Shown piece after piece: positions 13,880-28,729 of a stretch of DNA of 59,720 nt. The stretch covers positions 1 to 59,720 of the forward strand of contig JACUUS010000001.1 of NCBI GenBank assembly GCA_014859215.1. The letters are read 5' to 3'. The notes below the pieces were generated by a model. It searched no databases and was not told the origin of the DNA. It saw nothing but the letters and a program-made list of their open reading frames with translations. Every line of letters begins with the position of its first letter. Position 1 is the first letter of the stretch. The stretch is from Dehalococcoidia bacterium. GTDB lineage: Bacteria; Chloroflexota; Dehalococcoidia; SZUA-161. The translations under genes were made by a program, and so were the position numbers.

Positions 13880-13882
13880 GTT

Positions 13883-16115: not shown

Positions 16116-18248
16116 TCAATCGACGTGGATGCTTTCCCGGGGCGAGGCAGCAGCCGGCATGTACATATCGTTTGTGTACTCCTTCATCATGCGCCGTGTA
16201 CAGAAAAGGGGCGCCACAGTCCGGATGGCCTCCTTCACTATCTGCACCCAGCGGTGCGGGACTCCCGCCCGGTCGCGATCATAGAAACAGGGTACAATCT
16301 CTTCTTCAAGCAGGCGATACAGGGCCCGCGAATCTGCTTCATCTTCCAGCGCGCGGTCCTCAAGGTCGCCGCCTATAGCCCAGCCGTTCGTGTTCTTGTA
16401 GCCCTCGTGCCACCAACCGTCCCGTACGCTGAGATGCGGTACCCCGTTGATGGAGGCCTTCATGCCGCTTGTACCGCTTGCCTCCCAGAGCCGCCGGGGA
16501 GTATTGAGCCAGACATCCACTCCGGAGACAAGATACCTGGACATGTGCATATCGTAGTCTTCAATAAAGATAATACGACCGTGGAAGTCCCGGCTGCCGG
16601 CCAACTGGTAGACCTGGTGAAGCAGATGTTTTGCGGGGGTATCGGCCGGGTGTGACTTGCCGGCAAAGACTATCTGCACGGGGCGGGAGGGATCGGTGAT
16701 AATCCGTTTCAACCTCTGAATGTCACGGAATATGAGGCCTGGTCTCTTATACTCTACGAAGCGGCGAACAAATCCGAGGGTCAGGTAATCCGGATGGAAG
16801 AGCGCCCCCGTAGCGATGACCTGATCGGCTGTCATTTCGCCGTTCGCCCAACCTCTCTGGAAACGGTTGAATATGACCGCCATAAGCTTATGCTTGAGCA
16901 GATTCCGCACTTCCCACAGTTCCTCATCCGGCATTTCGTTCACGTGCGCCCAGATCTCCTCTTCGTCCTGTTTCTGAAGCCATTCCGGCCCGAGATATTT
17001 CTTGAAGAGCGTGGCCATCTCAGGGGCGACCCATGTACAGAGGTGTATTCCATTAGTGATATGCGAAATGGGTACGGATTCTTCGCTTGCTTCCGGCCAC
17101 AGGACGTGCCACATTCTCCGGGAAACCATGCCGTGCAGCCGGCTCACGCCATTGCGGCGGTTGGACATCTTGAGGGCCAGTATGGTCATGTTGAAGGTAG
17201 GATCAAGCTTGCCGTCTCTGCGCCCCAACTGAAGGAACTGGTCGCGGTCAATGCCAAGTTGTTGCCAGCTGGCGGCAAAGTACTTCTCAACCAGTTCGGC
17301 AGGGAAAATATCGTGACCGGCCGGGACCGGGGTGTGGGTTGTGAAGACTGTGTTAGCCTGTACGCTGCCAATCGCCTCGGCCATGGGGGTCCCGGTCTCA
17401 AGTTTCTCCCTGATACGTTCCAACATCATAAAACCGGGATGGCCCTCGTTGGCGTGCCAGACTTCCGGGTTAATACCGAGCGCCCGCAATACCTTGACTC
17501 CAGCTACCCCAAGCACGATCTCCTGCTGAAGGCGGGTTTCCTGGTCTGCCACGTAAAGGCGCGAGGATAAGAGGCGGTCCTGGAGGCTGTTTTCCTCTAC
17601 ATTTGTATCGAGCAGGTAAAGGTTGACCCGGCCGATGCGGACTCTCCACGCGCTGACGTACAATCTCTTGTCTCCCACCGGGACTTCGACCATGAGCTTA
17701 TTGCGTCCGGGAAGGAAAAGCTGCTCTATTGGCGTCTCGTCGAAGTTCAACTGCTCGTAGAGCTCCTTCTGCCAGCCATCGGGTGTGATTCGCTGGTGGA
17801 AATAGCCCTGTGGGTACATAAATCCGACCCCGACGAGGGGCAAACCCAGGTCGCTGGCTTCTTTACAGATGTCGCCTGCCAGGATTCCCAGTCCGCCGGC
17901 GTAAATGGGGAGCGAATTGTGAATTGCGAATTCCATGGAAAAATAGGCTATAGGTCCTCGCAGCAAGCCCGAGTTCGTTTTGTGAAACCAGGTGTCATCG
18001 CCCTTTGTATCGGCATCGAACGCGGTCAAGACAGAGTCATGGAGTCTGAGGAATACAGGGTCGGCGGCAGCCTGCCGAAGACGTTCCGGACTCATTTCCT
18101 GAAGCTGTTTTACCGGGTTATGCCCGCTGGACTTCCACAGGGGGTTATCGAGGGTCTGGAAAAGGTCCCGTGCTTCGGGATGCCAGCTCCACCAGAGGTT
18201 ATGCGCAAGCTCAAGCAACCGGCTTATTCGGTCCGGTATTGGAATCAT
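16116..18248 (-). CDS. glgP: alpha-glucan phosphorylase (GT35, GlgP/maltodextrin phosphorylase type)
   Basis: 710 aa. The N-terminus reads LAHNLWWSWHPEARDLF. It also contains IAYFSMEFAIHNSLPIYAGGLGILAGD and the pyridoxal-Lys region EASGTSGMKA. Confidence 0.9.
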   Translation of the reverse strand: MIPIPDRISRLLELAHNLWWSWHPEARDLFQTLDNPLWKSSGHNPVKQLQEMSPERLRQAAADPVFLRLHDSVLTAFDADTKGDDTWFHKTNSGLLRGPIAYFSMEFAIHNSLPIYAGGLGILAGDICKEASDLGLPLVGVGFMYPQGYFHQRITPDGWQKELYEQLNFDETPIEQLFLPGRNKLMVEVPVGDKRLYVSAWRVRIGRVNLYLLDTNVEENSLQDRLLSSRLYVADQETRLQQEIVLGVAGVKVLRALGINPEVWHANEGHPGFMMLERIREKLETGTPMAEAIGSVQANTVFTTHTPVPAGHDIFPAELVEKYFAASWQQLGIDRDQFLQLGRRDGKLDPTFNMTILALKMSNRRNGVSRLHGMVSRRMWHVLWPEASEESVPISHITNGIHLCTWVAPEMATLFKKYLGPEWLQKQDEEEIWAHVNEMPDEELWEVRNLLKHKLMAVIFNRFQRGWANGEMTADQVIATGALFHPDYLTLGFVRRFVEYKRPGLIFRDIQRLKRIITDPSRPVQIVFAGKSHPADTPAKHLLHQVYQLAGSRDFHGRIIFIEDYDMHMSRYLVSGVDVWLNTPRRLWEASGTSGMKASINGVPHLSVRDGWWHEGYKNTNGWAIGGDLEDRALEDEADSRALYRLLEEEIVPCFYDRDRAGVPHRWVQIVKEAIRTVAPLFCTRRMMKEYTNDMYMPAAASPRESIHVD

Positions 18249-18383: not shown

Positions 18384-19766
18384 CTATTCGTCTGACGGGC
18401 TGCCGATGGGCGTCTCCCCGAGCTTGGCATCATAGGACTCCAGAGCCCTGCCGGTGTCCGAGAGGATCTCTTCGGCATTGCCAAACTCCTTCTCCCAGGT
18501 GCGGCTCCTGGCAACCGTCTTGAATCGCTCATAGCCCTCCCTCGCCGTCTTCGCCAGAACAGCAAGGGGCATCCCGCCAAGGACAAGGTAGACATCGACG
18601 CGGTCAGAACTCCTGTCGATCTGAGAAAGCTGGACTGTGCTGCCCTTCAGGCGGGGAAAGGTCTCCTTGTTCCACCTGTTTATCTCGGAGCGCAAGGTTT
18701 GTTCATGCATGGAGGCGGCAACCTTTTCGGGAACATTGACGACCATGTGTGACAGGGTGATCTCTTGCCTGTCCACTGGCGCAAGCGGGCACAGGAGCGC
18801 GCTCTCGAGGATATTCCGGATACTGCCGAAGATTTCGAGGCTGCGCCCGATGGCCACGCAGGGCACAAAAGCATGTATGCCAAGAGACCTGCTCATCTTG
18901 GCAAGGTAGCCGGGTTCAGTGTGACCGCGTCCTGATACGGTCACCGTACCGGCCAGTGCTCCAAGAAGGCGAGAAACGAGTTCTTCCCTGGCAATCTCTT
19001 CGCCAGCTTCACCCACTCCGCGGATCTTCATCAAGCGATCGTGCTCAACGAGCACCACCATGTCGGCGACCGGGCCCCGTTCCAGGTCGATCAGCCTTGA
19101 CAGTGAGCAGACCGCATTGAACTGAGCGCCGTCCTGTTCAGTGGCCGCGGGCATGAGGGCGATTACGAGAGTCCTGGCGTGCGAATTATGGCATCGGGCT
19201 CGCTCAAGTATACAGGGGCTGGCCCCGCTGCCTGTTCCTCCGCCGAGAGCGGAAAGCAGAAAGACAGCCTGTTTGCGTACCGTTGACCGTATACCGGAGC
19301 GGAGCAGCCGATCATCCAGCCCAGGGTCGCCGCACGCCAGTTGCTGCCCGAGACCGAAGTACCCGACCTGTTTGCCCGCAGTACCGGGCAGCAGATGCAG
19401 CGAAAGAGGTGAAATAACATAATCCTTGCTCGCTCCCGTTTCCGGGATCAAGCCGGCAAGGTGCCTCGCTTCTCCCGAGGCATCTATCATCAGGAACCCG
19501 GAGTTCTTGAGGTCGCGTCGGGATGCCTGGAAGAAGTTCTGGACTAACCTGCAGCCCTGGTCGCCCACGCCCATGAAAATTCGCTCCCGGGCAAACTTCA
19601 GACGCTTTTCTTCATCCCCCAGAGCCTTGAGGAGAAGATCGAGCTCGGTCTCACAGTCTATCACAGGCAGACCGCAGACAGGGCAGGGCGCCGAATCGTC
19701 CTGGCACTGGTGACTGTTCGGGCAGAAAATTGTCTTCTTCTCGGTGTACTGTGTCGCCATCGTCAA
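18384..19766 (-). CDS. FtsZ/tubulin-superfamily GTPase-like protein with N-terminal 4-Cys zinc ribbon (paralogue B)
   Basis: - 460 aa, starting with a CPNSHQC...CPVCG zinc ribbon.
- T1-like loop: MGVGDQGCR.
- T3-like loop: GYFGLGQQ.
- Exact tubulin signature GGGTGSG (aa 175-181, nt 19224-19244).
- FtsZ-like VVLVEHDRL segment.
- FtsZ C-domain-like end: HMVVNV...VDVYLVLGG.
- The tracked start is TTG at 19766. An ATG at 19760 is an equally good start. Confidence 0.7.
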   Translation of the reverse strand: MTMATQYTEKKTIFCPNSHQCQDDSAPCPVCGLPVIDCETELDLLLKALGDEEKRLKFARERIFMGVGDQGCRLVQNFFQASRRDLKNSGFLMIDASGEARHLAGLIPETGASKDYVISPLSLHLLPGTAGKQVGYFGLGQQLACGDPGLDDRLLRSGIRSTVRKQAVFLLSALGGGTGSGASPCILERARCHNSHARTLVIALMPAATEQDGAQFNAVCSLSRLIDLERGPVADMVVLVEHDRLMKIRGVGEAGEEIAREELVSRLLGALAGTVTVSGRGHTEPGYLAKMSRSLGIHAFVPCVAIGRSLEIFGSIRNILESALLCPLAPVDRQEITLSHMVVNVPEKVAASMHEQTLRSEINRWNKETFPRLKGSTVQLSQIDRSSDRVDVYLVLGGMPLAVLAKTAREGYERFKTVARSRTWEKEFGNAEEILSDTGRALESYDAKLGETPIGSPSDE

Positions 19767-20734
19767 GAACCAACGTTTGAGTGCAAATAGGCCTCGAGAG
19801 TGCGGGCAGTTTCCTGGACGTGAGCTGTGATCGCGGGTTTATCATCGCTCGAAGGGCTATCTATCCCGGGATGGAGAGAGAGTCTCTGGATAAGAACGGC
19901 GGCCAGTCTCGACAGTTGAGGCAGGCATTCGTCAGCCTTGAGATTCTCCCCGAGTTCCAACCAGGCGCACAGAAGCCTGTACCGGAACGCGAAGAGGAAT
20001 ATGTACCTGATGTCAAACCATGAGGTCAAATGCGGACTCTCGGCTACGATCCCGGTAAATTCCCTCGGTTCCGGAGCATCATTCCCAAGCGTTTCCCCGA
20101 TAACCTGAAGCGTGGAAACAACTTTGCGCAAGACAGAGGAAGCATCACGCGCGAGAACGGCGTCATTGACCGCTTTCAACTGGTTGACGATGTCTACGGA
20201 TTGCAGCTCCGCGAGAGCCGTCGCCATTTCACCGGCCTGGCTGGTTGAGGCATCGATGCCGTCCCAGCCTTCATATGTGAGGTCACGAAAAATTCCAACG
20301 AGCAGGTCCACCACGAGCCAGGTGACGCACGCCGTCCTGTCCAGAAAGAGCCTGTACTGCGCTTTACGCTCCCGGAGCAGGTTCTGCTGGCGCAGGGTCT
20401 CTAGAGAGGCTTTGAGATCCCGACAGAATGCGACCGCGGCTTCGCCCTTAGCCAGCGACAGGCGGCTGGCGGCGCGTTCGCCCCTCGAGCCGGCCCATTC
20501 CAGCACCAGCGTGGTTGAAGAATCTCTGACTTTGGCGGACGTGATATCCGCCAATCTTATGGAAAATTCCAGGTGGGGTGACGAAAAAAAGTTGTTCTTC
20601 CTTTCGAAAAGGAGACTCTTGCTTGTCAACAAGAGCTTGCCCTTACCCACCTTATCGAGTTGCACATTCTTGAGCTCGGCCAGCGGGTGTTCTTCGGGCA
20701 GCGGCGGGGCCTGTATCTCGGCGACAGGACTCAT
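19763..20734 (-). CDS. hypothetical protein: N-terminal PH/GRAM-like domain plus C-terminal all-helical domain
   Basis: 323 aa. The GKGKLLLTSKSLLFERK...FSIRLADITSAKV pattern resembles PH/GRAM/bPH beta-sandwich domains. The start forms an ATGA overlap with the upstream gene. Confidence 0.5.
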   Translation of the reverse strand: MSPVAEIQAPPLPEEHPLAELKNVQLDKVGKGKLLLTSKSLLFERKNNFFSSPHLEFSIRLADITSAKVRDSSTTLVLEWAGSRGERAASRLSLAKGEAAVAFCRDLKASLETLRQQNLLRERKAQYRLFLDRTACVTWLVVDLLVGIFRDLTYEGWDGIDASTSQAGEMATALAELQSVDIVNQLKAVNDAVLARDASSVLRKVVSTLQVIGETLGNDAPEPREFTGIVAESPHLTSWFDIRYIFLFAFRYRLLCAWLELGENLKADECLPQLSRLAAVLIQRLSLHPGIDSPSSDDKPAITAHVQETARTLEAYLHSNVGS

Positions 20735-23097
20735 GCAGCAGCCTCGTTATGGCTCGCTTTGACCACCTGCCTGTGCCTGATGGCGCTCTGCCGGGCATCG
20801 AAGACAGCCTTATCCGGGTGAGCAGCGGCGTACATTCGCAGGTATTCCAGAGCATATTTCGAATTCATGGGGAGGTCCGAGCACATGATTTCCTGTGAAC
20901 GTGCGAACTTGTCATCGATGATGTACTCAATGTTGGGGTAGTTAATAAGGAAATCATTCATCTGGTGGTAGTTCTGGATCGCTCTGGCCTGGAGCTCGAT
21001 AGCTTCCAGCAACCTGTCCATGAAGATGAAGCGTCTGCTGATTGCATCATCCTCAAGCGTATTTGCAGCCGAGTTGAGCAGCTCTTGCGCTTCGGCCGCT
21101 GTGTGGCTGTTCTTGCCCCAGGAATACCCATTAGGGCATCTGCGGGTGTTGCCCTCCTCGAGAGCGCGGATGAGAGAGTTGAAATCTCGTACGGCACCGG
21201 TTGCGGCGTCCATCAATTTACGGCTTTGTTCGACGATAACTATAACGTGTGCCAGCATCCGAGAGCCCTGAACGGCACTGGCGATGGAATCGAGTTCCCC
21301 GGCTTTGGTGCGGCAGAGGTCTGCCGACTTCGCATCTCCGACGGATTCGAAAATAGGGGCGAGCCTGGTAAGGAGAATAGCCTTGAGTCTCTCCGACATG
21401 GAAGCGACCCGGCCCGCAAGTTCAACTATCGAGTTCTCGATTCGGCCATCTATAATCTGCAGGTCTTCGGATATGGTCCGTGCAGCTTCCTCGAATCTAC
21501 CCTGCTTTACAAATCCGTGGCCGATGTCGATGGTGGTGAGCGAAAACTCGGGATCGATCTCGTCCTGAATCGTGTTAGAGACTACGTCCCCTGCGGATAC
21601 GAGTTCTGTGGCCAGTTGCTTGAAAGCATTATTGAGCTTTTCCTGCTCAGCAAGAGCGGTGTCGAAGTCATCCACATGCAGGGCCAACTGGACCGGCGCG
21701 ATAACGCCGTTGATAGCCGGGATGCCGAGGGCACAGGCTTCGTCGACCGTGGCTTTGTACAGGCGTTTAGACTCCTCCAGGTACTTGATGAGCTTATCCT
21801 CGAGCTGCGCCTGCAGCAGGGAAAGCTGTTCGCGCATCGCGTGAAATTCACCGCAACTCATTTCGAGCCGGGGCAGGCTAAGGGCGCCTTCGCTTTCGAG
21901 GGTGAGCGCTACTTTTTCCTCGCACTGCGCAATCGAAGCCTTTTCATCGCCCAGGTCCCTGGTACGACAGACGCCGGCAAACTCATGAAGCCGCCTCCTG
22001 GTGCTGTCCAGGAGCTCGTAGAGCTCCAGAGAGAGGCCCGCCAGCACTCCCCTGAACCTCACTTTTGAATCGCGCCGTGACAGCCAGGTCTCCACTGTTG
22101 AAGCCAGGCCTGCGAATGCGAGCATTGCCCCCATCAGGATGCCGATGTTTGCCAGGTCGGAGAAAGCGGTCCTGTACCCCAGCGGTTTTTCCAGAAGCTG
22201 GAGGGGTACAAGGAATACGAGCGCCATTAGCAGTACAAGGAACACAGGGTTCAGAGCGCGCAGCAGAGAGTTGGTGTCTCCGAGCTTCCTCAGAGGGCTG
22301 AGAAGGGCTGGTGTGACCAGTACTGACGCGTACATGGAGAGGACGAGGACCACTCCCCCCCACCCCTCGATGAAGTAGGGTGAGAAATAGCTAAACCGGC
22401 TTATGTCGTGACTCAGCTGCCCATTGAATGCCGCTTTTAGTGAAGAAAGGTCCAGGTAGCTCAAAGCGGGCAACTGGGCATACTCCACCCGCAGGAAGAG
22501 GGGAAGCATTTCTCCTTCGGCAAGAGGGGGATATGGCATAACCAGGAAGGGCAGGTAAAAAACAATAAAAGCGAAAACGGCCCATCCACCGCTGACAGTT
22601 GATCCCCTGAGCCGGAAAAGGGTAATGGCTGCGAGTAATGCGAAAGAGACAACGAAATACGGAGTGAGCATCAGTACGCCGGCCGCTGCACCTACAGTAA
22701 CACCCAGTATGGCTCCTGTAAGCCCGGTCAGAGCGAAGGGAAGCATGAGCGCAATGGTACCGAGCGATATAAAAGCCCACAGCGCGCCATCGAGCTGGTA
22801 CGAGTATGCAGGCGATGCGAACAGGAGCATTAGTACGAGAGCGATCGCGGGCCACCGGTACGCCAGCAGCGCGCACAGGAGCGCGAGGAACACGCACATA
22901 GCGGGGGGATAAAAGGGCAGGAAGTAGTAGACTACGAGTGAGGTGATGAGGAAGATCAGAGATGTGGCGAGCTTGCCGCAGAACTCCCGGAAGGCTTTCT
23001 CACTGTTCCCTACGTCACATCCTTGCAGCAGCCCCTCACCGGTGTCTTCGGTAACTTGCAGCGAAGGCAAGGTATTCTCCATAAGATCCGTTACCAC
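20731..23097 (-). CDS. polytopic membrane protein (~8-9 predicted TM helices) with ~440-aa cytoplasmic helical/coiled-coil C-terminal domain
   Basis: 788 aa. Residues ~45-340 are almost continuous hydrophobic helices. The rest is amphipathic and helical, rich in E/K/L/A. The tracked start is GTG at 23097 with no clear SD, and an ATG lies at 23082, so the start is uncertain. Confidence 0.6.
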   Translation of the reverse strand: MVTDLMENTLPSLQVTEDTGEGLLQGCDVGNSEKAFREFCGKLATSLIFLITSLVVYYFLPFYPPAMCVFLALLCALLAYRWPAIALVLMLLFASPAYSYQLDGALWAFISLGTIALMLPFALTGLTGAILGVTVGAAAGVLMLTPYFVVSFALLAAITLFRLRGSTVSGGWAVFAFIVFYLPFLVMPYPPLAEGEMLPLFLRVEYAQLPALSYLDLSSLKAAFNGQLSHDISRFSYFSPYFIEGWGGVVLVLSMYASVLVTPALLSPLRKLGDTNSLLRALNPVFLVLLMALVFLVPLQLLEKPLGYRTAFSDLANIGILMGAMLAFAGLASTVETWLSRRDSKVRFRGVLAGLSLELYELLDSTRRRLHEFAGVCRTRDLGDEKASIAQCEEKVALTLESEGALSLPRLEMSCGEFHAMREQLSLLQAQLEDKLIKYLEESKRLYKATVDEACALGIPAINGVIAPVQLALHVDDFDTALAEQEKLNNAFKQLATELVSAGDVVSNTIQDEIDPEFSLTTIDIGHGFVKQGRFEEAARTISEDLQIIDGRIENSIVELAGRVASMSERLKAILLTRLAPIFESVGDAKSADLCRTKAGELDSIASAVQGSRMLAHVIVIVEQSRKLMDAATGAVRDFNSLIRALEEGNTRRCPNGYSWGKNSHTAAEAQELLNSAANTLEDDAISRRFIFMDRLLEAIELQARAIQNYHQMNDFLINYPNIEYIIDDKFARSQEIMCSDLPMNSKYALEYLRMYAAAHPDKAVFDARQSAIRHRQVVKASHNEAAA

Positions 23098-23111
23098 GCA
23101 TTTTACGTTTC

Positions 23112-25838
23112 TTAGCCGCCGGCGATTTTCTCACCAGGCCCGGGTATGTCTGTAACCTCCTCCAGACCGTTGCCGTCGAAGGAAGCATCCATGCCGTGCT
23201 CGAGCAGGAACGAATGGGCAAGCCTCTTCTCTTCCTGGGTGGTGTGGCTGTAAATGTGCTTCATTTCGCTGTAGCATTCCAGGAATTCCGGCTCCGCCCG
23301 GGCGGCGATAATAAGGAATCTGACAGTCCAGGGATCGGAAGAATCGATTTCGCGTATGGCAATACTCCTGGAGGCATCCTCCTTCACATAACCGGAGAGG
23401 GTCGCCCTCACGTCAGCAGCCAGATCATGGTCCCATATACCGCGGGGCGAGACTATGGCAAACCAGATGTAATCGGTCTTGTATTGTGAAGTGAGGCCCA
23501 TCACGCCGGGAACCCGGAAGATGCCAAGCACGCTGGACAGGTATTCCTTAAGATGGTCCTTGTCTACGATTTCATTAAGTATGTTTTCGTTGGACAGCGA
23601 CGCTTCATCCTCCATAAGGATTCTCTGCATCAGCTTAAGCTGGACGTCCTCCGTCAACTCGGCGGTGCGATTGTAGAAACCCTTGTCCTTTACCATTGCA
23701 TTCATTTTCTCGTAATGCCGGTTTGCCAGCTCGGTGATCTCGGCGAGAAGCTTGCGGTAATCGGAGTTGACGTCGAATCGCCTCTCGATAGCCGTGTACT
23801 CGCTCATCTTGGCCTGTACCTGCTCAAGGCCCTCGGACTGCAGACGAATGTCTTCGTCTACCGATGTCAGGGCATGGTCCAGTTTCTTCCGCCGGTCATC
23901 CCAGAGTTTCTTCTTGCCGCCGGCCAGGAATCCGAGCTTGATATCACTCACCTCCCTGCTCGCGCGTGTCCTTTCAACCTGTTTACTCTTGCGGTTAAGC
24001 TCGAGATTGTCCAGCGCGGACGTCAGGCTGGCAGCCTCTTCTTCCAGTACCCTCTTGACCCTGCGGCAATTGACCAGCAGGGAATCCATGCTTTTCAGCT
24101 GGATATTGAGTGGAGTGAACATTGACGAGAGAAGTGAGAACAGGACCACAAGCTCGGGATTTATGATCCGCTCGACGCGTGTAAGGGCTGCCTGCTGATT
24201 CTCGGTCTTTTCGCTTTTTACCAGGTTCTTCTGAAGCTTGTCAGCCAGCTTCTTGGTCTCGAGGTAGCGGCGCAGACTCCGCAGGTAGTCCTTTATCATC
24301 GCAGCGAGTTCGCTGACATCATTGACCAACTGCACTTCCTTCGCGGTCAGTTGCTGAGCGCTGGGGAGGCTGTCTCGCAGGTTCTCAAGGATGTCGTCTA
24401 CCTCGCGCAGAAATTCGCCGTAGTTCTTTGATATGCGTGCCGCGAGTTCGATGAGCCTGGACGCCTGTTTCCGGATTAGAGACTCCACTGTTCCTTCGGG
24501 CGTATCCAGACCAATGGCCATGACGGGCCGGCCCAGCTCATTCACCTGGGCCTTGATAGGGTCGTCGACACCCTTGAGGTGCATTATGAATTCGGTCTCA
24601 ATGGAGCGGTCGGCATTGATGAGGTTCTCAACGGTTTCGTCGAAAGCATCCTCGTTGAATTTGCCGGCTTCGATAAGCTGCTGCCTGTAGATCTCCCGGA
24701 GCTCCTGGTAGCAGAGTTCGAGGATCTTCGCCACGCCGCCGACTTCTGTCGGATGTGTGCCAAGGTACACTTCCTTCTTCTCTCGCCTCAAGGCCCGGAC
24801 CTTGTCCAATCGGTGCAGGAATATCTTGGTCAGGTCGATGAACTCGGTGATAGGATACGTGATGCTTATCGTTGAAAGCACGTGCAGCCACCGACCATTC
24901 ATGTCGATATTGGAGCCGATATTGCTGAGTAGATCGGCGAGGTCGAAGTTCATGGAAGTCATCAAAATGTCGACAATGGCGTCATCGATCAGGCGTTTGG
25001 CGTCGATCAGGCTGGCAGTCTTGCTGTACGCAGGCCCGAGCGGCATGCACAGAAAAGCGCTGAACGGGTTCTCGTAGGTGTGCCCGAAGCGGGCCGTCAC
25101 CCTGGCGTTGCTCTGCTTGTTCACGGCCATGCCTGTTTCAAGGAGGGCGCTGAAGGCGGAGGTGCCTTTGGCCGGAGGATCATCGCCCGAGCAAGGCAGT
25201 ATGCACAGGCCGATAATAGGTACGCCGCTGCCCAGTTTGCGGCGAAGATGCCTGGCGAAATCGAGGACCATGCCGCTGCCGCTGCCGCCACCCAGGCCGA
25301 AGACGAGGAATACCACAGGCTGGATAGTGGACGTGAAAAGGTGCTCCTTGAAGGTGTCCATGTAGTTGTCCAGCAATCTCAGGTGGTGATAGTTCAGTCC
25401 ATAGATGGCCTTGGAGAGCGCCCGTCGCCGGCCCACTCCGCCTGCCAGCGGCGGTATATCCATGGAAGAAGCAAGCCACGGCTGATAGTCCGCGCCGACC
25501 TTCACGCCTTCGCGCTTCAGGTACTGCGGGAACTTGTTGATAAAATCGAACATGCTCTCCGGAGTCGGAAACTTGACGGACTTCGCCGTGAGAGAAATCT
25601 TATCCGAAGGTATGCCCCTTTCCCGGAGCTCCTCGAACAGGTTCCTGGCTGAGACCTCCAGGCTTTGAATATCATGGTCGGCGACATCGATAGCCAGGCA
25701 GGAAACCCTGACACCCTCTTTCTTGACCAGGGACAGCAGGGTGTTGCGGTTATTAATGAAGGCCTCCACAATATTCACGCCGGCTCCGCCCAGACCTACC
25801 AGCTGTATAGACGAGTTATATGTCCCGAAACGAGCCAT
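23112..25838 (-). CDS. FtsZ/tubulin-superfamily GTPase-like protein with ~600-aa coiled-coil C-terminal extension (paralogue A)
   Basis: - 908 aa.
- T1 loop IQLVGLGGAGVNIVEAF (nt 25779-25796), compared with FtsZ IKVIGVGGGGxNAV.
- T3-like loop AGGVGRRRA.
- T4 signature GLGGGSGSG (nt 25272-25292).
- T7-type NFDLAD, i.e. NxDxxD (nt 24933-24950).
- A strong SD, GGGAGG, lies 5 nt upstream of the ATG. Confidence 0.7.
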   Translation of the reverse strand: MARFGTYNSSIQLVGLGGAGVNIVEAFINNRNTLLSLVKKEGVRVSCLAIDVADHDIQSLEVSARNLFEELRERGIPSDKISLTAKSVKFPTPESMFDFINKFPQYLKREGVKVGADYQPWLASSMDIPPLAGGVGRRRALSKAIYGLNYHHLRLLDNYMDTFKEHLFTSTIQPVVFLVFGLGGGSGSGMVLDFARHLRRKLGSGVPIIGLCILPCSGDDPPAKGTSAFSALLETGMAVNKQSNARVTARFGHTYENPFSAFLCMPLGPAYSKTASLIDAKRLIDDAIVDILMTSMNFDLADLLSNIGSNIDMNGRWLHVLSTISITYPITEFIDLTKIFLHRLDKVRALRREKKEVYLGTHPTEVGGVAKILELCYQELREIYRQQLIEAGKFNEDAFDETVENLINADRSIETEFIMHLKGVDDPIKAQVNELGRPVMAIGLDTPEGTVESLIRKQASRLIELAARISKNYGEFLREVDDILENLRDSLPSAQQLTAKEVQLVNDVSELAAMIKDYLRSLRRYLETKKLADKLQKNLVKSEKTENQQAALTRVERIINPELVVLFSLLSSMFTPLNIQLKSMDSLLVNCRRVKRVLEEEAASLTSALDNLELNRKSKQVERTRASREVSDIKLGFLAGGKKKLWDDRRKKLDHALTSVDEDIRLQSEGLEQVQAKMSEYTAIERRFDVNSDYRKLLAEITELANRHYEKMNAMVKDKGFYNRTAELTEDVQLKLMQRILMEDEASLSNENILNEIVDKDHLKEYLSSVLGIFRVPGVMGLTSQYKTDYIWFAIVSPRGIWDHDLAADVRATLSGYVKEDASRSIAIREIDSSDPWTVRFLIIAARAEPEFLECYSEMKHIYSHTTQEEKRLAHSFLLEHGMDASFDGNGLEEVTDIPGPGEKIAGG

Positions 25839-25840
25839 GG

Positions 25841-26449
25841 TTACCTCCCACTGATCCTCTCAAGCTGCTGCTTGACCTGTTCCAGATCCCGACCGAGTTG
25901 CTTGTCTATCTTGGTCAGTCTTACGGATAAGACATCCAGCTTGCCCGCTTCCTCATCAATCTGCTGGCGTACAAGGCTGCCGCCTGATCTTGACCTGAGG
26001 AAGAGGAGGAAGAAAATGACCGCAAACACAGCGGCGATGGCTATGGCTACAATATATGGCATGAACGATACCTGGGACGAGGCTACCGGAAATCCCGAGG
26101 CAGACGTCGGAAGCGTTCCCAGCAGAGCCGTCGCGCTCTCAACCAGTCCTTTCGCGCTCAGGTCCTTGGCGACCTTGATCACGCTGTCGGCCAGGCTTGC
26201 GTACCGGGGTTCGACGACAGAAGTCTGGAGAAGGTTCTGCTTGCTCGTCAGGAGTTGTTCGTAGGCTACTATGGCCTGGTCCTTAACATCGACACTGTAT
26301 TCGTCCAGCAGGGTGTCCTGAGGACCGAGAAGAAGTCTCACCATGCCTACAGGCCTGATGAAATGCAGGTAATCACCATTTGATATCTTCTCAGATGTAT
26401 AGTCCGAGGGCACAGTCCCCGTCAGGGCAAACCTGGCTGTCCCTTCCAC
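25841..26449 (-). CDS. single-pass membrane protein with cytoplasmic coiled-coil tail; probably the 3' part of a larger frame interrupted by TAG
   Basis: 202 aa from a GTG with no convincing SD. It has one TM helix (MPYIVAIAIAAVFAVIFFLLFL) followed by RSRS and a heptad-like tail. It lies in the same frame as ORF 26480-26794, separated only by TAG plus 10 sense codons. Confidence 0.5.
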   Translation of the reverse strand: MEGTARFALTGTVPSDYTSEKISNGDYLHFIRPVGMVRLLLGPQDTLLDEYSVDVKDQAIVAYEQLLTSKQNLLQTSVVEPRYASLADSVIKVAKDLSAKGLVESATALLGTLPTSASGFPVASSQVSFMPYIVAIAIAAVFAVIFFLLFLRSRSGGSLVRQQIDEEAGKLDVLSVRLTKIDKQLGRDLEQVKQQLERISGR

Positions 26450-26479
26450 CCCGTTGAACCTGATTACCGGCTGCCCTGG

Positions 26480-26794
26480 CTACCAGGTATCGGTATTGAC
26501 ACCTGCATAATCGTTTTCAAGCCGCCAGTACACATCGCCTATTTTTCGCAGGGGAGTGCTGAGGCCCAGAAGTGTATCTTCCAGTCCCACCCCAATGTCG
26601 ACTTCCAAAGTGACTGTGTATGTTGCGCCTGCCATCAGCGGCCCTTTGGTTACATCGCTGCCATCGATATTCCTGACGATGCATGATGATATGAGGGCTG
26701 GTGAGGGGCTCTGGGCTGACACTGAGGCAGGGAATGCAAGAGCGAGGACTGGGACTACGAGCATAACTAGTGCCAGAAGTCTCACCTTGTTCAT
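26480..26794 (-). CDS. small secreted protein (Sec signal peptide); probably the 5' part of the frame continued in 25841-26449
   Basis: The start is set to the ATG at 26794 (MNKVRLLALVMLVVPVLALAFPASVSA/QSP), with AAGGAG 8 nt upstream. The tracked GTG at 26803 is less likely. The mature part is beta-rich. Confidence 0.55.
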   Translation of the reverse strand: MNKVRLLALVMLVVPVLALAFPASVSAQSPSPALISSCIVRNIDGSDVTKGPLMAGATYTVTLEVDIGVGLEDTLLGLSTPLRKIGDVYWRLENDYAGVNTDTW

Positions 26795-27017
26795 AACATA
26801 CACTCCTTTAATTCACCGGGTTCATTGTCTGTCGATACGCCGCTCAGGGTAAGGGGCCCGAGGCCTTGCCACCTCATCACATCAGCCCATCCCTCCCCTC
26901 ATACCTTGAGCCGGAGTTTGCCCGGGTGAATCTGGAGACTTCTGAAAGCTGATAAAGAACGGCAAACCACCCACTGCCCGGCGGACTGACGAAAAGGCCC
27001 CGCCCGGCATTGTGCCA

Positions 27018-27046
27018 AGAATAGCATCGTGCTTTGGTGGTGTCAA
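27018..27046 (-). promoter_or_regulatory. candidate sigma70-type promoter for the FtsZ-like operon
   Basis: The minus strand reads TTGACA (27046-27041), a 17-nt spacer, then TATTCT (27023-27018). It would give a leader of about 215 nt before the ATG at 26794. Confidence 0.35.
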
Positions 27047-28018: not shown

Positions 28019-28729
28019 TCAGTAGAGGACCTCTTCACGATGGAAGGACTCGGCGAGCTCGTATTCCTTTCCGTCCGCGGCGGTCCGGCACCTTTCCCGA
28101 AGCCAGTTTTCGAGATCCCCGCGAGGCCAGTCTCCTACCTGACTGACGTGACAGTAGAGGGCCTTCATTTTCAAGTCGAACGTGTCTGTCACATCAAAGC
28201 AGTAGTTGACATCTTCTGAAGCCCATAAGAGGATTTCGTCAACGCGGTGCGGCTCGAGGCCGTCCAGCAGAAGCTCGGGATAGGAGAGCCTGTCCCTTGC
28301 ATAGGGAAATACTGCATCGAGCGTGACCTGCCCCGTTATCCTGTGATCACGGTGCCAGAAGTACTTCCTGTATGGGTCCGCCGTGATTACGATCCGGGGC
28401 CGGTATATCCTTATCAGGCGCACAATTTGCTTTCTGAACTCACTGGTATCTTCCAGACCCTGATCGGGATGGCGCAGGAATACGACTTCGCGTACGCCAA
28501 GCACTTTGGCCGCTTCGAGTTGCTCCTTCTCCCGCATGCGCGCCAGTCTTTCCGGTGTCATGTTCGGGTCCGTCGTCCCCTTGTTGCCGTTAGTGCATAC
28601 GACGTAAACAACCTCTTTCCCCCGACGGACCCATGCAGCGACCGTTCCCGCCGCGCCGAATTCGGCATCGTCCGGGTGAGGTGTGACGACCATTACATGA
28701 GCGGTCTTATTCGCCAATCCGGACCTCAC
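28019..28729 (-). CDS. PIG-L/LmbE-family N-acetylglucosaminyl deacetylase (MshB/BshB-like)
   Basis: Contains the VVTPHPDDAEFG motif, HRDHR and the family-typical HVSQ. 236 aa. Confidence 0.85.
   Translation of the reverse strand: MRSGLANKTAHVMVVTPHPDDAEFGAAGTVAAWVRRGKEVVYVVCTNGNKGTTDPNMTPERLARMREKEQLEAAKVLGVREVVFLRHPDQGLEDTSEFRKQIVRLIRIYRPRIVITADPYRKYFWHRDHRITGQVTLDAVFPYARDRLSYPELLLDGLEPHRVDEILLWASEDVNYCFDVTDTFDLKMKALYCHVSQVGDWPRGDLENWLRERCRTAADGKEYELAESFHREEVLY

What the first reader, a model, noticed from the sequence alone, without database searches (positions are those of the whole stretch)
18384..26803. Operon with two divergent FtsZ/tubulin-like GTPases, a polytopic membrane protein and membrane-associated accessory proteins: candidate novel cytomotive/membrane-remodelling system
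**Gene order (minus strand, co-directional):**
1. A signal-peptide ORF and a single-pass coiled-coil ORF, which share one frame split by a TAG.
2. A 908-aa FtsZ/tubulin-like protein.
3. A 788-aa membrane protein with 8-9 TM helices.
4. A 323-aa PH/GRAM-like plus helical protein.
5. A 460-aa zinc-ribbon FtsZ/tubulin-like protein.

**Evidence for an operon:** the junctions indicate translational coupling.
- GGGAGGTAAccATG at 25843-25836.
- A 14-nt gap at 23098-23111.
- An ATGA overlap at 20734-20731.
- TGAcgATG at 19765-19758.

**Evidence for the FtsZ/tubulin fold:** both large proteins carry the tubulin signature (GGGSGSG and GGGTGSG) downstream of a GxGxxG T1 loop, in the order expected for this fold.

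**Why it looks new:**
- No ftsA, ftsQ, mur or min genes are adjacent, so this is not the housekeeping division locus.
- The domain architectures do not match the tubulin-superfamily systems I know (FtsZ, BtubA/B, TubZ-TubR, PhuZ, CetZ). The differences are a coiled-coil tail of about 600 aa, a zinc ribbon and a dedicated polytopic membrane partner.
- Makarova and Koonin (2010) described additional FtsZ-like families (FtsZl1/FtsZl2) in membrane-remodelling contexts. I cannot decide by eye whether these proteins belong to one of them.
Basis: partly seen in the sequence, partly recalled or inferred. Interest (0 to 1): 0.9.

Follow-up and report, generated by a model that had tools for sequence, protein, structure and literature searches.

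The report
FtsZl1-type dual tubulin-like membrane operon
This Dehalococcoidia contig carries a five-gene cassette, shared with several archaeal phyla, that encodes two different tubulin/FtsZ-fold proteins and three membrane-linked partners; it is an undescribed variant of the uncharacterised 'FtsZ-like 1' systems predicted in 2010 to remodel membranes.

Summary
Both large proteins belong to the tubulin/FtsZ superfamily, by Pfam thresholds and by confident AlphaFold models matched to PDB structures.

- The first two ORFs are one gene. It is a signal-peptide, single-pass membrane protein, interrupted here by a CAG>TAG change, so the cassette has five genes.
- The 908-aa protein is a distant member of the known FtsZl1/Tubulin_2 family.
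- Its "coiled-coil tail" is a roughly 450-residue helical insertion inside the C-terminal domain. The family also keeps an FtsZ-like T7 catalytic motif (NFDLAD).
- The 460-aa protein is a separate lineage, nearest CetZ. Its GTP-binding motifs are intact in Dehalococcoidia but decayed in archaeal orthologues.

**Conservation**
The cassette is syntenic in Dehalococcoidia, Nitrososphaeria, Bathyarchaeia and Methanomethylicota. Partner genes accompany the 908-aa gene in about 55 of 58 loci, and the flanking genes differ between genomes.

**What is new**
The partner set does not match published FtsZl1 operons: there is no vWA protein, kinase, P-loop GTPase or OmpA protein.

**Verdict**
This is a real feature, a new variant of a known but experimentally untouched kind. 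Its function (membrane-anchored filaments) is inferred only.

The parts
25841..26803 (-). g1g2: one gene for a type-I membrane protein of about 320 aa. It has a signal peptide, an extracytoplasmic beta-rich then helical domain, a single TM helix and a cytoplasmic helical tail of about 50 aa. In this window an in-frame TAG splits it into a 107-aa ORF and a 202-aa ORF.
   Evidence: - ORFs and junction sequence.
- Hydrophobic N-terminus and one TM segment.
- In relatives it is a single continuous ORF of 309-393 aa.
- It is present upstream of g3 in 56 of 58 loci.
- A homologue (E = 4e-11) also precedes a 1,069-aa FtsZl1 relative in L088.
- It has no Pfam or PDB homologue.
26480..26482 (-). In-frame TAG within g1g2, at a position where relatives encode a conserved Gln in the motif TW-Q-PG.
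   Evidence: - Window sequence: TGG TAG CCA GGG.
- Relatives carry CAG (14 loci) or CAA (11 loci) at this codon.
- This implies a single C>T change, a sequencing or assembly error, or a strain variant.
23112..25838 (-). g3: a 908-aa FtsZl1/Tubulin_2-family protein and the best-conserved gene of the cassette.
   Evidence: - Pfam: PF13809 at 41.3 bits (cut-off 27) and PF00091 at 36.8 bits (cut-off 33).
- AlphaFold model with pLDDT 88.
- Foldseek matches the N-terminal ~340 residues to CetZ2, FtsZ, TubZ and tubulin.
- 725 homologue clusters were found, and 286 species genomes encode a relative.
24852..25838 (-). g3 GTPase domain through H7-T7-H8-S7 (residues 1-329). It contains T1 (G15/G17/G20), a T3-like PPLAGGVGRxR (129-139), the T4 signature GGGSGSG (183-189; nt 25272-25292) and the T7-like NFDLAD (297-302; nt 24933-24950).
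   Evidence: - Column conservation in 66 sequences: G181, G183-185 and G187 are invariant; F298 and D299 are invariant; D302 is D or E in 65 of 66.
- The secondary-structure order in the model agrees.
23514..24851 (-). g3 helical insertion (about residues 330-775), made of long helices of 25-55 residues.
   Evidence: - The AlphaFold secondary structure shows helices 330-359 through 693-716 and beyond.
- Short relatives of 510-561 aa match the g3 profile at positions 7-280 and 776-890 only. They lack this region, so it is an insertion.
23115..23513 (-). g3 C-terminal alpha/beta domain (about residues 776-890) followed by a disordered end. It probably forms the second half of the tubulin-type C-terminal domain (S8-H10-S9-S10-H11-H12).
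   Evidence: - Strand and helix order in the model: E791-797, H804-817, E826-832, E838-848, H856-864, H868-874.
- It is conserved next to the GTPase domain in the short relatives.
- W792, P798, W802 and W837 are invariant.
- The 3D packing against S7 could not be inspected.
20731..23097 (-). g4: a 788-aa polytopic membrane protein. It has an N-terminal hydrophobic region of about 340 aa (roughly 8-9 TM helices) and a cytoplasmic, mostly helical domain of about 450 aa with conserved C-terminal motifs (WGKN, EFLLNYPN).
   Evidence: - Hydropathy.
- Family alignment.
- It is present in 56 of 58 loci.
- It has no Walker A motif.
- It has no Pfam, NCBIfam or PDB homologue.
- The word-indexed search found only close Dehalococcoidia copies.
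19763..20734 (-). g5: a 323-aa soluble protein with an N-terminal beta-rich module of about 100 aa (possibly PH-like) and a helical C-terminal part. It is the least conserved member of the cassette.
   Evidence: - Family alignment.
- Detected in 40 of 58 loci, inverted in Thaumarchaeota.
- Only weak PH-type hints: VPS13_C at E = 0.1, the PH-domain protein 3dcx at E = 0.36, and bPH_3 at E = 0.041 in 1 of 17 members.
18384..19766 (-). g6: a 458/460-aa protein with a complete two-domain tubulin/FtsZ fold and an N-terminal Cys/His zinc knuckle (nt 19674-19724). The T4 signature GGGTGSG lies at nt 19224-19244. The likely start is the ATG at 19760.
   Evidence: - PF00091 at 42.7 bits (cut-off 33).
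- phmmer against PDB: Odin FtsZ1 at 4e-7 and BtubB at 3e-5.
- AlphaFold pLDDT 82, pTM 0.81.
- Foldseek: OdinTubulin at 9e-18, then CetZ, BtubA and tubulins, aligned along the full length with TM-scores of about 0.65.
- Family profile against PDB: CetZ1 is best, at 2.7e-12.
- C13, H17, C26 and C29 are conserved.
- Only remotely related to g3.
27018..27046 (-). Possible sigma-70-type promoter (TTGACA-17-TATTCT with an upstream TG), about 215 nt upstream of g1g2. This is weak evidence.
   Evidence: The consensus scan found 3 promoter-like sites in the region, against 4.4 expected by chance. This is a candidate only. No intrinsic terminator or unusual structure follows g6.

Best explanation
The region is a self-contained five-gene module of the FtsZl1 (Pfam Tubulin_2) type. 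It has moved horizontally between Dehalococcoidia and TACK archaea.

**Shown**
- g3 is a tubulin-superfamily protein. Every nucleotide-binding loop is conserved, and so is an FtsZ-like T7 motif carrying two acidic residues.
- A helical array of about 450 residues is inserted into its C-terminal domain.
- g6 is a second, independently derived tubulin-fold protein, nearest CetZ. Its GTP-binding motifs are intact in bacteria but eroded in archaeal orthologues, and its T7 region is not conserved.
- g1g2 is a bitopic membrane protein with an N-out, C-in topology. g4 is a polytopic membrane protein with a large cytoplasmic helical domain.
- All five genes travel together.

**Inferred mechanism**
- g3 binds GTP and assembles head to tail. 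The T7 loop of one subunit completes the active site of the next, so hydrolysis is coupled to assembly as in FtsZ and tubulin.
- The inserted helical array projects from the filament and links it to the cytoplasmic tail of g1g2 and the cytoplasmic domain of g4. This would hold the polymer at the inner face of the membrane and couple it to the extracytoplasmic domain of g1g2.
- g6 acts as a non-catalytic or regulatory tubulin-fold partner of g3, for example as a cap, nucleator or alternating subunit, in the way gamma- or beta-tubulin divide labour with alpha-tubulin.
- g5 is an adaptor that may bind membrane.
- The output would be local shaping or remodelling of the membrane or cell envelope, not housekeeping division.

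In this particular genome the anchor gene carries a premature stop. The module may therefore be impaired, unless the TAG is an error.
For: **Family and fold**
- Pfam matches are above the curated cut-offs for both proteins.
- The models are confident and match only tubulin/FtsZ-superfamily structures.
- g3 shares the FtsZl1 architecture described by Makarova & Koonin (PMC2875224).
- g3 is related to a haloarchaeal FtsZl1. The GTPase-domain search gives E = 6e-4. That protein is named as Salinigranum. The g3 family profile scores 1.7e-16 against it.

**Catalytic competence of g3**
- T1, T3-like, T4 and NFDLAD are invariant or nearly so in 66 sequences at 38-80% identity.
- NFDLAD aligns with FtsZ N207/D209/D212.

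**Insertion**
- Short relatives contain the N- and C-terminal blocks of g3 without the helices.

**g6 as a degenerate partner**
- See the alignment. g3 and g6 are only remotely related.

**Module**
- g1g2, g4 and g6 are present in 55-56 of 58 loci with enough flank, in three lineage-specific orders. The flanking genes are unrelated between genomes.
- Start and stop codons in the window overlap or lie close together.

**Membrane association**
- Signal peptide and TM segments.

**Not division, defence or phage**
-.
Against: - No experiment exists for any FtsZl1 protein.
- Polymerisation, GTPase activity and every protein-protein contact proposed here are inferred.
- I could not inspect the 3D coordinates. 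The claim that the C-terminal alpha/beta domain packs with S7-H9 as a tubulin-type C-domain therefore rests on secondary-structure order and on the short homologues.
- The T7 alignment to FtsZ has low overall hhalign probability (29%). HMM alignments to PDB FtsZ/CetZ sequences cover only the T4 region.
- Foldseek TM-scores for g3 are modest, at 0.45-0.5 relative to the target.
- The huge insertion could sterically prevent canonical protofilaments. Makarova & Koonin left open that FtsZl1 may not polymerise.
- Two loci have g3 alone.
- The anchor gene is interrupted in this window.
- The patchy, HGT-prone distribution would also fit an accessory or conflict system.
Confidence: 0.55

Rival explanations
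1. g3 is a non-polymerising GTPase switch. It, and g6 where still active, works as a nucleotide-regulated dimer or switch that controls a membrane transport or signalling complex formed by g4 and g1g2, rather than as a cytomotive filament.
For: - Makarova & Koonin could not identify T6-H7 or a tubulin-type C-domain in FtsZl1 and allowed that it may not form filaments. Their reviewer, Jekely, proposed transport or signalling roles instead (PMC2875224).
- A helical insertion of about 450 residues sits in the C-terminal domain.
- g4 is a large polytopic protein of unknown function.
- g6 loses its GTP motifs in archaea.
Against: - In this clade the T7-like NxDxxD motif, whose role in characterised FtsZ/tubulin proteins is to activate GTP hydrolysis across a polymer interface, is almost invariant.
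- All characterised tubulin-superfamily members polymerise (established knowledge, also stated).
- g4 shows no transporter family signature.
Confidence: 0.2
2. The cassette is an accessory conflict or defence-type or otherwise selfish module, spread by horizontal transfer, in which a tubulin-like NTPase senses or executes a response at the membrane.
For: - The distribution is patchy: 286 of about 185,600 species genomes.
- It occurs in unrelated genomic contexts.
- There are signs of transfer between bacteria and archaea, with 54% identity between Dehalococcoidia and Thaumarchaeota g3.
- The partner genes evolve fast, at 18-28% identity between the same taxa.
- Some MAGs carry two copies (L032 and L036).
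Against: - No protein hits any PADLOC or PHROG model.
- No integrase, transposase, nuclease, toxin or restriction gene was seen next to the cassette in the loci I inspected. The neighbours are housekeeping or metabolic genes.
- g3 is under strong purifying selection across phyla.
Confidence: 0.1
3. It is the main, housekeeping cell-division or cell-shape apparatus of these organisms and replaces canonical FtsZ.
For: - Two tubulin-fold proteins occur with membrane anchors.
- From general knowledge, not tested here: Nitrososphaeria divide with Cdv rather than FtsZ, and cultured Dehalococcoidia lack a peptidoglycan wall.
Against: - Only a small minority of species in each phylum have it.
- The scores against the ftsZ equivalog model are far below the cut-off.
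- No FtsZ_C domain was found, and there is no division or wall gene context.
- The anchor gene is interrupted in this genome.
- Makarova & Koonin note that FtsZl1 normally coexists with canonical FtsZ.
Confidence: 0.05
4. The G-rich motifs belong to a Rossmann-type dinucleotide-binding fold and the tubulin assignment is spurious.
For: GxGxxG-type motifs are also typical of Rossmann folds. One sub-threshold ThiF-family hit covers g3 residues 8-51 (E = 0.17).
Against: - Pfam Tubulin and Tubulin_2 matches are above the curated cut-offs.
- Foldseek returns only tubulin/FtsZ/CetZ/TubZ structures among the listed matches.
- The profile of the g6 family hits 160 PDB sequences, and the 60 best shown are all FtsZ, CetZ, TubZ or tubulins.
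Confidence: 0.01

Closest known systems
FtsZl1 family and its predicted operons (Makarova & Koonin 2010, Biol Direct 5:33; Pfam PF13809 Tubulin_2), especially the archaeal layout A2 - FtsZl1 - membrane-associated P-loop GTPase - A1
   Same: - g3 passes the PF13809 cut-off.
- It has the family architecture of an N-terminal FtsZ-like GTPase domain, a long helical region and a C-terminal domain.
- It lacks the FtsZ_C and Tubulin_C domains.
- It is related, distantly, to a haloarchaeal FtsZl1.
- As in the archaeal operons, a membrane protein of about 300 aa lies immediately upstream and membrane proteins lie downstream.
- The same functional prediction applies (membrane remodelling), and both remain equally untested.
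   Different: - g3 is shorter, at about 900 aa against 1,040-1,170 aa.
- It forms a small separate clade of about 15 clusters at 50% identity. It matches classical members only at E of about 1e-6 to 1e-3 with a single sequence.
- No vWA protein, Ser/Thr kinase, OmpA protein or P-loop GTPase is present: there is no Walker A motif in any cassette protein and no such Pfam hit.
- In their place are a second tubulin-fold protein (g6), a polytopic protein of about 790 aa (g4) and g5. None of these has a counterpart next to the haloarchaeal or intermediate FtsZl1 genes.
- The T7 loop is recognisable here, whereas the 2010 paper could not identify T6-H7 in the family.
- The host range (Dehalococcoidia, Nitrososphaeria, Bathyarchaeia, Methanomethylicota) is absent from the 2010 lists.
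CetZ (archaeal tubulin-superfamily cell-shape proteins) and the 'CetZ-like' Chloroflexota-Dehalococcoidia sequences noted by Santana-Molina et al. 2023 (PMC9871819)
   Same: - g6 has a complete two-domain tubulin/FtsZ fold with C-terminal helices.
- CetZ1, CetZ2 and Methanosaeta CetZ are among its best sequence-profile and structure matches.
- The 2023 survey mentions sparse CetZ-like groups in Dehalococcoidia.
   Different: - The margin over Asgard and bacterial tubulins, FtsZ and TubZ is small, with E from 1e-12 to 1e-9 for all of them.
- g6 has an N-terminal zinc knuckle.
- Its GTP-binding motifs are lost in the archaeal orthologues.
- It is always encoded next to an FtsZl1-type gene.
- No paper I found describes its operon.
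Heteromeric tubulins: eukaryotic alpha/beta-tubulin, Prosthecobacter BtubA/B, Asgard AtubA/B
   Same: - Two tubulin-fold proteins are encoded together.
- Only one of them keeps a conserved catalytic T7 (g3), and the other's T7 region is not conserved (g6). This recalls the alpha (E254) versus beta (K254) division of labour.
- BtubA/B and tubulins are top structural matches of g6.
   Different: - g3 and g6 are not close paralogues. hhalign aligns only 58 columns, at E = 4e-6.
- g3 carries a helical insertion of about 450 residues.
- No evidence of a heterodimer was obtained.
- The system is membrane-linked.
FtsZ with its membrane tethers (FtsA, ZipA, SepF)
   Same: - A GTPase with T1-T4 loops and a T7 NxDxxD motif.
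- It is co-encoded with a single-pass membrane protein whose short cytoplasmic helix could act as a tether.
   Different: - The scores against the ftsZ equivalog model are about 20 bits, against a cut-off of 295.
- There is no FtsZ_C domain or dcw context.
- The tether candidates are unrelated in sequence to FtsA, ZipA or SepF.
TubZ-TubR-tubC and PhuZ (plasmid and phage tubulin-like segregation systems)
   Same: They share the tubulin-superfamily fold, and TubZ structures appear among the matches.
   Different: - There is no DNA-binding adaptor and no centromere-like repeats.
- There is no plasmid or phage context and no PHROG hits.
- The partners here are membrane proteins.

Membership tests
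FtsZl1 / Pfam Tubulin_2 (g3) | Match to PF13809 above its gathering score | tested here: met
   41.3 bits against a cut-off of 27, covering residues 13-216 and model positions 2-207 of 356. The precomputed PF13809 annotation is also present on nearly all homologues.
FtsZl1 / Pfam Tubulin_2 (g3) | Architecture: N-terminal FtsZ-like GTPase domain, extended helical or coiled-coil region, distinct C-terminal domain; no FtsZ_C or Tubulin_C domain | tested here: met
   The AlphaFold model (pLDDT 88) shows a GTPase domain to about residue 329, long helices over 330-775 and an alpha/beta domain over 776-890. There is no FtsZ_C or Tubulin_C hit.
FtsZl1 / Pfam Tubulin_2 (g3) | Detectable homology to a bona fide FtsZl1 protein | tested here: met
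   The Salinigranum salinum 1,134-aa protein has PF13809 at 55 bits and sits in an operon like Htur_1068-1070. It matches at E = 6e-4 and 30% identity with a single sequence, and at 1.7e-16 with the g3 family profile. The relationship is distant and limited to the GTPase core.
FtsZl1 operon as published | Co-encoded vWA-domain protein, Ser/Thr kinase, OmpA-like protein or diverged P-loop GTPase | tested here: not met
   No such Pfam or NCBIfam hits in any cassette protein. No Walker A motif. The profiles of g4, g5 and g6 find nothing among the neighbours of the haloarchaeal or intermediate FtsZl1 genes. The published components are listed.
FtsZl1 operon as published | Small membrane-associated protein ('A2') directly upstream of FtsZl1 in archaea | tested here: inconclusive
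   g1g2 is a membrane protein of about 320 aa directly upstream of g3. It has a homologue upstream of a 1,069-aa relative (E = 4e-11). I could not obtain the sequences of MA2710, PAB1256 or Mbar_A2474 to test homology with A2 itself.
Tubulin/FtsZ superfamily (g3 and g6) | PF00091 above its gathering score and the signature GGGTG[ST]G-type T4 loop downstream of a T1 loop | tested here: met
   g3 scores 36.8 bits and g6 42.7 bits, against a cut-off of 33. GGGSGSG and GGGTGSG are present. In archaeal g6 orthologues the signature has decayed.
Tubulin/FtsZ superfamily (g3 and g6) | Tubulin/FtsZ three-dimensional fold | tested here: met
   g6 aligns over its full length at E = 9e-18 with TM-scores of 0.61-0.68. 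The N-terminal ~340 residues of g3 match at E = 5.5e-6 with TM-scores of 0.45-0.5 relative to the target. All listed matches are superfamily members.
Tubulin/FtsZ superfamily (g3 and g6) | T7 'synergy' loop with a catalytic acidic residue | tested here: inconclusive
   In g3, N297-F-D299-L-A-D302 is nearly invariant and is aligned by hhalign to FtsZ N207/D209/D212. In g6 the equivalent region is not conserved across the family.
Tubulin/FtsZ superfamily (g3 and g6) | GTP-dependent polymerisation | not testable with these tools
   This requires biochemistry or microscopy.
CetZ (g6) | Closest to CetZ in sequence or structure, with a CetZ-type C-terminal region | tested here: inconclusive
   CetZ1 is the best profile hit (2.7e-12). 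Asgard AtubB2 (9e-12), Odin FtsZ1 (4.5e-11) and BtubB (3.5e-10) follow closely. OdinTubulin is the best Foldseek match. No phylogeny and no CetZ_C profile test was done.
Canonical cell-division FtsZ | Score above the TIGR00065 cut-off, an FtsZ_C domain and a division/cell-wall gene neighbourhood | tested here: not met
   The scores are 22.8 bits (g6) and 17.9 bits (g3), against a cut-off of 295.2. There is no FtsZ_C domain. The neighbours are alpha-glucan metabolism genes, a metallo-beta-lactamase-fold protein, a PIG-L deacetylase, GNAT acetyltransferases and a GT4 glycosyltransferase.
Known anti-phage defence systems / phage protein families | Match to a PADLOC or PHROG model | tested here: not met
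   No hits at E <= 0.01 for any of the six ORFs.

The most novel reading that the evidence does not exclude
The cassette encodes a new kind of heteromeric, membrane-anchored tubulin-superfamily polymer. A catalytic FtsZl1-type subunit (g3) pairs with an independently recruited tubulin-fold subunit (g6) that has lost, or is losing, its GTPase function. The pair is tethered by dedicated bitopic and polytopic membrane proteins. The system shapes the membrane or cell envelope of Dehalococcoidia and TACK archaea. It would be an independent evolutionary 'invention' of the catalytic/non-catalytic division of labour seen in alpha/beta-tubulin, and the first mechanistic handle on FtsZl1 systems.
Probability: 0.2. 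Interest if true: 0.8.

Novelty: new variant of a known kind. Interest (0 to 1): 0.6.

Why it matters
FtsZl1/Tubulin_2 proteins were predicted in 2010 to form the core of a widespread membrane-remodelling machine. Later surveys set them aside as too divergent, and I found no experimental study of them.

This clade offers a compact, well-defined five-gene version with several useful properties:
- Both tubulin-fold proteins model with high confidence.
- The T7 catalytic motif is recognisable.
- There is a clear candidate membrane tether.
- Orthologues form a natural series in which the second tubulin-fold protein loses its GTP-binding motifs.

Together these make concrete experiments possible: GTPase and assembly assays, T7 mutants, and tests of g3-g6 and g3-anchor binding.

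The cassette also adds a cytoskeleton-like system to Nitrososphaeria, Bathyarchaeia and Dehalococcoidia, which are abundant uncultured groups whose cell biology is barely known. It also documents transfer of such a system between the bacterial and archaeal domains.

Tried and rejected
- **Rossmann-fold reading of the G-rich motifs.** Rejected.
- **Pyrrolysine or programmed read-through at the TAG.** Considered and set aside. Relatives encode Gln (CAG or CAA) at that codon, so a point change or an error is the simplest reading. I did not search for pyl genes.
- **Defence-system or phage origin.** No PADLOC or PHROG hits.
- **Homology of g4, g5 and g1g2 to anything solved or curated.**
  - Profile searches against PDB sequences and member-by-member Pfam scans gave only compositional or coiled-coil noise.
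  - The TAL-effector 'hits' of the g5 profile have no significant stretch and were dismissed.
- **HMM alignment of the g3 family to PDB FtsZ/CetZ beyond the T4 loop.** Failed, because only about 40 residues align.
- **Recovering MA2710-MA2713 or PAB1256-1258 sequences** from the 2010 supplement to test A1, A2 and GTPase homology directly. Impractical, since the alignments are fragmented over many look-ups. I used a haloarchaeal operon and an intermediate relative instead.
- **Inspecting model coordinates.** Not possible, because only FASTA files are exposed.
- **Promoter, terminator and RNA-structure scans of the operon borders.** Nothing beyond chance.
- **tRNA and Rfam scans of the window.** Empty.
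- **Word-indexed search with g4.** It found only close Dehalococcoidia relatives. I therefore measured its distribution with profiles on the fetched loci.

Full report

Yes. The junctions read as described: a Shine-Dalgarno-like GGGAGG overlapping the g2 stop just before the g3 ATG, a 14-nt g3-g4 gap, an ATGA overlap between g4 and g5, and TGAcgATG between g5 and g6.

The tubulin signatures GGGSGSG (g3 residues 183-189) and GGGTGSG (g6 residues 175-181) are present. GxGxxG T1 loops lie upstream of both. g4 has a hydrophobic N-terminal stretch of about 340 residues, g1 a signal-peptide-like N-terminus, and g2 one TM segment. Base composition is uniform across the window, which has no tRNA or Rfam match.

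The window is an entire 59,720-bp contig of a Dehalococcoidia MAG with locus tags IBX68_000xx.

**2. The first two ORFs are one gene.**

In every related locus, the regions matching g1 and g2 lie in one uninterrupted ORF of about 310-390 aa. The window's TAG (26482-26480) falls where relatives have a conserved Gln in the motif TW-Q-PG. That codon is CAG in 14 loci and CAA in 11.

So the cassette has five genes. In this genome the first one carries a C>T nonsense change, or else a sequencing or assembly error or a strain variant. The intact protein would be a type-I membrane protein. It would have a signal peptide, an extracytoplasmic beta-rich then helical domain, one TM helix and a conserved cytoplasmic helical tail of about 50 residues.

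**3. Both large proteins are tubulin-superfamily members, of two different lineages.**

- **g3 sequence evidence.** g3 passes the Pfam cut-offs for Tubulin_2 (PF13809, 41.3 bits against 27) and Tubulin (PF00091, 36.8 against 33).
- **g6 sequence evidence.** g6 passes Tubulin (42.7 against 33). It has direct phmmer similarity to Odinarchaeota FtsZ1 (4e-7) and BtubB (3e-5).
- **g6 structure.** Its AlphaFold model (pLDDT 82, pTM 0.81) is a complete two-domain tubulin/FtsZ fold. Foldseek against the PDB returns OdinTubulin (9e-18), CetZ, BtubA, eukaryotic tubulins and TubZ, aligned along the full length.
- **g3 structure.** Its model (pLDDT 88) matches CetZ2, FtsZ, TubZ and tubulins over its first ~340 residues.
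- **Position of g6.** A profile of the g6 family places it roughly equidistant from CetZ (best, 2.7e-12), Asgard and bacterial tubulins, FtsZ and TubZ. This fits the remark by Santana-Molina et al. (PMC9871819) that sparse 'CetZ-like' groups exist in Chloroflexota-Dehalococcoidia.
- **Relationship between g3 and g6.** They are only remotely related to each other: hhalign aligns 58 columns around T4 at E = 4e-6. They are not recent paralogues.
- **Not canonical FtsZ.** Neither protein comes near the ftsZ equivalog threshold.

**4. Anatomy of g3.**

Across 66 homologues at 38-80% identity, the following are invariant or nearly so:
- the T1 glycines;
- a T3-like PPLAGGVGRxRALSKAIY block;
- the T4 signature;
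- a short loop N297-F298-D299-L-A-D302 directly after the long H7 helix.

hhalign lays this last loop on E. coli FtsZ N207-V-D209-F-A-D212, in a co-linear alignment running from T4 to beyond H8. In characterised FtsZ and tubulin, these acidic T7 residues activate GTP hydrolysis in the adjacent subunit of the polymer (established knowledge).

After H8 the model has one strand (S7) and then helices of up to 55 residues, running to about residue 775. An alpha/beta domain follows, whose element order is S8-H10-S9-S10-H11-H12-like.

The decisive evidence comes from the short relatives. Proteins of 510-561 aa, found with the GTPase domain as query, match the g3 family profile in two blocks only: positions 7-280 and 776-890. 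The helical region is therefore an insertion inside the C-terminal domain, not a tail. The T7 element and a C-terminal domain, which Makarova & Koonin could not identify in FtsZl1, are recognisable in this clade. I could not open the model coordinates, so the 3D packing remains inferred.

**5. Anatomy of g6 and its decay.**

g6 has an N-terminal C-x3-H...C-x2-C zinc knuckle that is conserved in Dehalococcoidia and Thaumarchaeota.

Across phyla, the T4 signature is intact only in the bacterial copies:
- Thaumarchaeota have SEGIVAG, GENITSG or GETLVSG.
- Bathyarchaeia have GEGVGSA, SEGSSSG or WDGIGSA.
- Methanomethylicota have YDGLSSG.

In the Bathyarchaeia and Methanomethylicota copies the T1 loop has decayed as well and the zinc knuckle is missing. 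The T7-equivalent stretch is not conserved anywhere in the family. So g6 is a tubulin-fold partner that in many lineages is probably not a GTPase.

**6. Conservation of the cassette.**

- **Distribution.** g3 has 725 homologue clusters in the 5.8-billion-protein collection, and relatives in 286 of about 185,600 species genomes. By record title, the 80 best loci are about 25 Chloroflexota (mostly Dehalococcoidia), 15 Nitrososphaeria and 40 Bathyarchaeia or other Thermoproteota.
- **Co-occurrence.** I ran tblastn with the window proteins and profile searches of all ORFs in 85 fetched loci. Among 58 loci with enough flanking DNA, g1g2 is present in 56, g4 in 56, g6 in 55 and g5 in at least 40. 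A few loci are duplicates of one another.
- **Three gene orders.**
  - Dehalococcoidia: g1g2-g3-g4-g5-g6.
  - Thaumarchaeota: the same order with g5 inverted.
  - Bathyarchaeia and Methanomethylicota: g1g2-g3-g6(inverted)-g4(-g5).
- **Flanks.** The flanking genes differ between genomes. They are histidine biosynthesis genes in a thaumarchaeon, GlnA and purine salvage genes in Methanomethylicota, and alpha-glucan metabolism plus PIG-L, GNAT and GT4 genes here. The window's own neighbours are never found beside the cassette elsewhere.
- **Uneven conservation.** Between this MAG and Thaumarchaeota, g3 is 54% identical, whereas g4, g5 and g6 are 18-28% identical.

**7. Relation to what is known.**

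[quoted passage not shown] These lie in operons with vWA proteins, Ser/Thr kinases, a diverged P-loop GTPase, OmpA-like proteins and lineage-specific membrane proteins. In archaea the layout is A2 - FtsZl1 - membrane-associated GTPase - A1. g3 meets the family criteria (see the membership table).

It is nonetheless an outlying clade. An exhaustive search of 1.84 billion representatives with its GTPase domain gives only 120 hits at E <= 1e-3. These fall into three groups:
- about 15 full-length orthologue clusters;
- a group of 473-588-aa proteins at 28-36% identity;
- classical proteins of 1,000-1,170 aa, found only at E of about 1e-6 to 1e-3.

All members of the last two groups that I tested except one (P0231) carry PF13809. 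One of them is a Salinigranum protein. Its neighbours of 482, 710 and 1,063 aa reproduce the published haloarchaeal layout.

No cassette protein has a Walker A motif or a vWA, kinase or OmpA domain. The g4, g5 and g6 profiles find nothing next to the haloarchaeal FtsZl1 or the 1,069-aa intermediate relative. The g1g2 profile does find the 323-aa gene upstream of that intermediate relative, at E = 4e-11. The pairing of a membrane protein with an FtsZl1 gene therefore seems to be the older core, and g4-g5-g6 a clade-specific partner set.

I found no paper describing this cassette. Santana-Molina et al. excluded Tubulin_2 proteins from their analysis.

**8. How it most likely works.**

*Shown:* the family assignments, folds, motif conservation, membrane topology features and the tight genomic linkage.

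*Inferred:*
- g3 assembles head to tail with T7-dependent GTP hydrolysis.
- Its inserted helical array couples the polymer to the cytoplasmic tail of g1g2 and the cytoplasmic helical domain of g4.
- g6 is a non-catalytic or regulatory tubulin-fold partner, such as a cap, nucleator or alternating subunit.
- g5 is an adaptor.
- The output is local membrane or envelope shaping.

The main rival is a non-polymerising GTPase switch that controls a membrane complex. Accessory/conflict-system and housekeeping-division readings are less likely.

The PH-like label for g5 is not established. It rests on VPS13_C at E = 0.1, the PH-domain protein 3dcx at E = 0.36, and bPH_3 at E = 0.041 in 1 of 17 members.

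**9. Verdict.**

It is not categorically new. It is a new, compact, dual-tubulin-fold variant of the FtsZl1 systems, shared across domains of life, and it belongs to a family that nobody has characterised experimentally.

I give it moderately high interest (0.6) for three reasons. It gives that neglected family a tractable, well-modelled representative. It clarifies the T7 and C-domain question for this clade. It also reveals a catalytic plus degenerate tubulin-fold pairing. The function remains entirely inferential.

Noticed in passing
window 26480-26482 (minus strand): The first gene of the cassette is interrupted by a TAG where all relatives encode Gln (CAG or CAA). It could be a pseudogene, a strain variant or an assembly error. 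If it is real, the module may be non-functional in this MAG.
   Followed up: yes
loci L012-L021, L037-L080, L084 (g6 orthologues); alignment A7: The second tubulin-fold protein loses its GGGTGSG signature in the archaeal orthologues, and also its T1 loop and zinc knuckle in Bathyarchaeia and Methanomethylicota. The FtsZl1-type partner keeps every GTP-binding and T7 residue. Some Bathyarchaeia copies are much longer, at 585-646 aa (L053, L058, L070).
   Followed up: partly
L087:4802-9279: A different small operon has two tandem 'short' g3-like tubulin-fold genes, of 510 aa (no GGGTGSG) and 561 aa (GGGTGSG). They are separated by a 99-aa gene and followed by 200-aa and 117-aa genes. Both lack the helical insertion. 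This is another case of an intact-signature copy paired with a degenerate one.
   Followed up: partly
L088:206-9351: An intermediate relative has a g1g2 homologue (323 aa), a 1,069-aa FtsZl1-type protein that aligns to g3 along its full length, a 605-aa protein of unknown function, and a 1,003-aa extracytoplasmic NosD/beta-helix/PKD/cohesin protein. This hints at a link between these systems and cell-surface structures.
   Followed up: partly
L001-L080 (comparison with the window): Conservation within the cassette is very uneven. g3 is 54% identical between this Dehalococcoidia MAG and Thaumarchaeota, whereas g4, g5 and g6 are only 18-28% identical. g3 of the window's clade is also closer to the thaumarchaeal copies (52-56%) than to a second Dehalococcoidia clade (45-50%), while g4 and g6 show the opposite ranking. 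Transfer between the domains and/or rate heterogeneity could explain this.
   Followed up: no
L054 (DATHCJ010000009.1); L032 and L036 (CAZIZY01); L014 and L015 (CAZKFJ01): A contig binned as 'Candidatus Limnocylindrales bacterium' carries the Bathyarchaeia-type gene order and identity level, which suggests mis-binning or transfer. One Nitrosopumilales MAG has two divergent copies of the g3 gene on different contigs. Another has two contigs with apparently the same cassette.
   Followed up: no
L083:10001-12865 (Bathyarchaeia, P0104): A 954-aa g3 paralogue stands alone, with no cassette partners. It lies next to a Cdc6/Orc1-type gene. One Bathyarchaeia locus has four consecutive g4-like ORFs.
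   Followed up: no
window 1739-18248 (minus strand): Directly downstream of the cassette lies a long co-directional run of alpha-glucan metabolism genes: a GH57 enzyme, an amylase-family enzyme, a GlgB-like branching enzyme, MalQ, a TreS-maltokinase fusion (1,117 aa), GlgE and an alpha-glucan phosphorylase. This amounts to a complete GlgE-type pathway cluster, and it is not conserved with the cassette elsewhere.
   Followed up: partly
window 28019-32205: Upstream of the cassette lie a PIG-L-family deacetylase, two GNAT acetyltransferases and a GT4 glycosyltransferase, which also passes the PF20706 'GT4-conflict' cut-off. Together these resemble a pathway for a low-molecular-weight thiol (bacillithiol- or mycothiol-like) or for glycoconjugate synthesis.
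   Followed up: no
window 48587-51060 and 35024-36961: Two adjacent genes encode 2-hydroxyacyl-CoA dehydratase D-component-family proteins, and another gene encodes a tungsten-type aldehyde:ferredoxin oxidoreductase. This is ordinary anaerobic metabolism, noted only for context.
   Followed up: no
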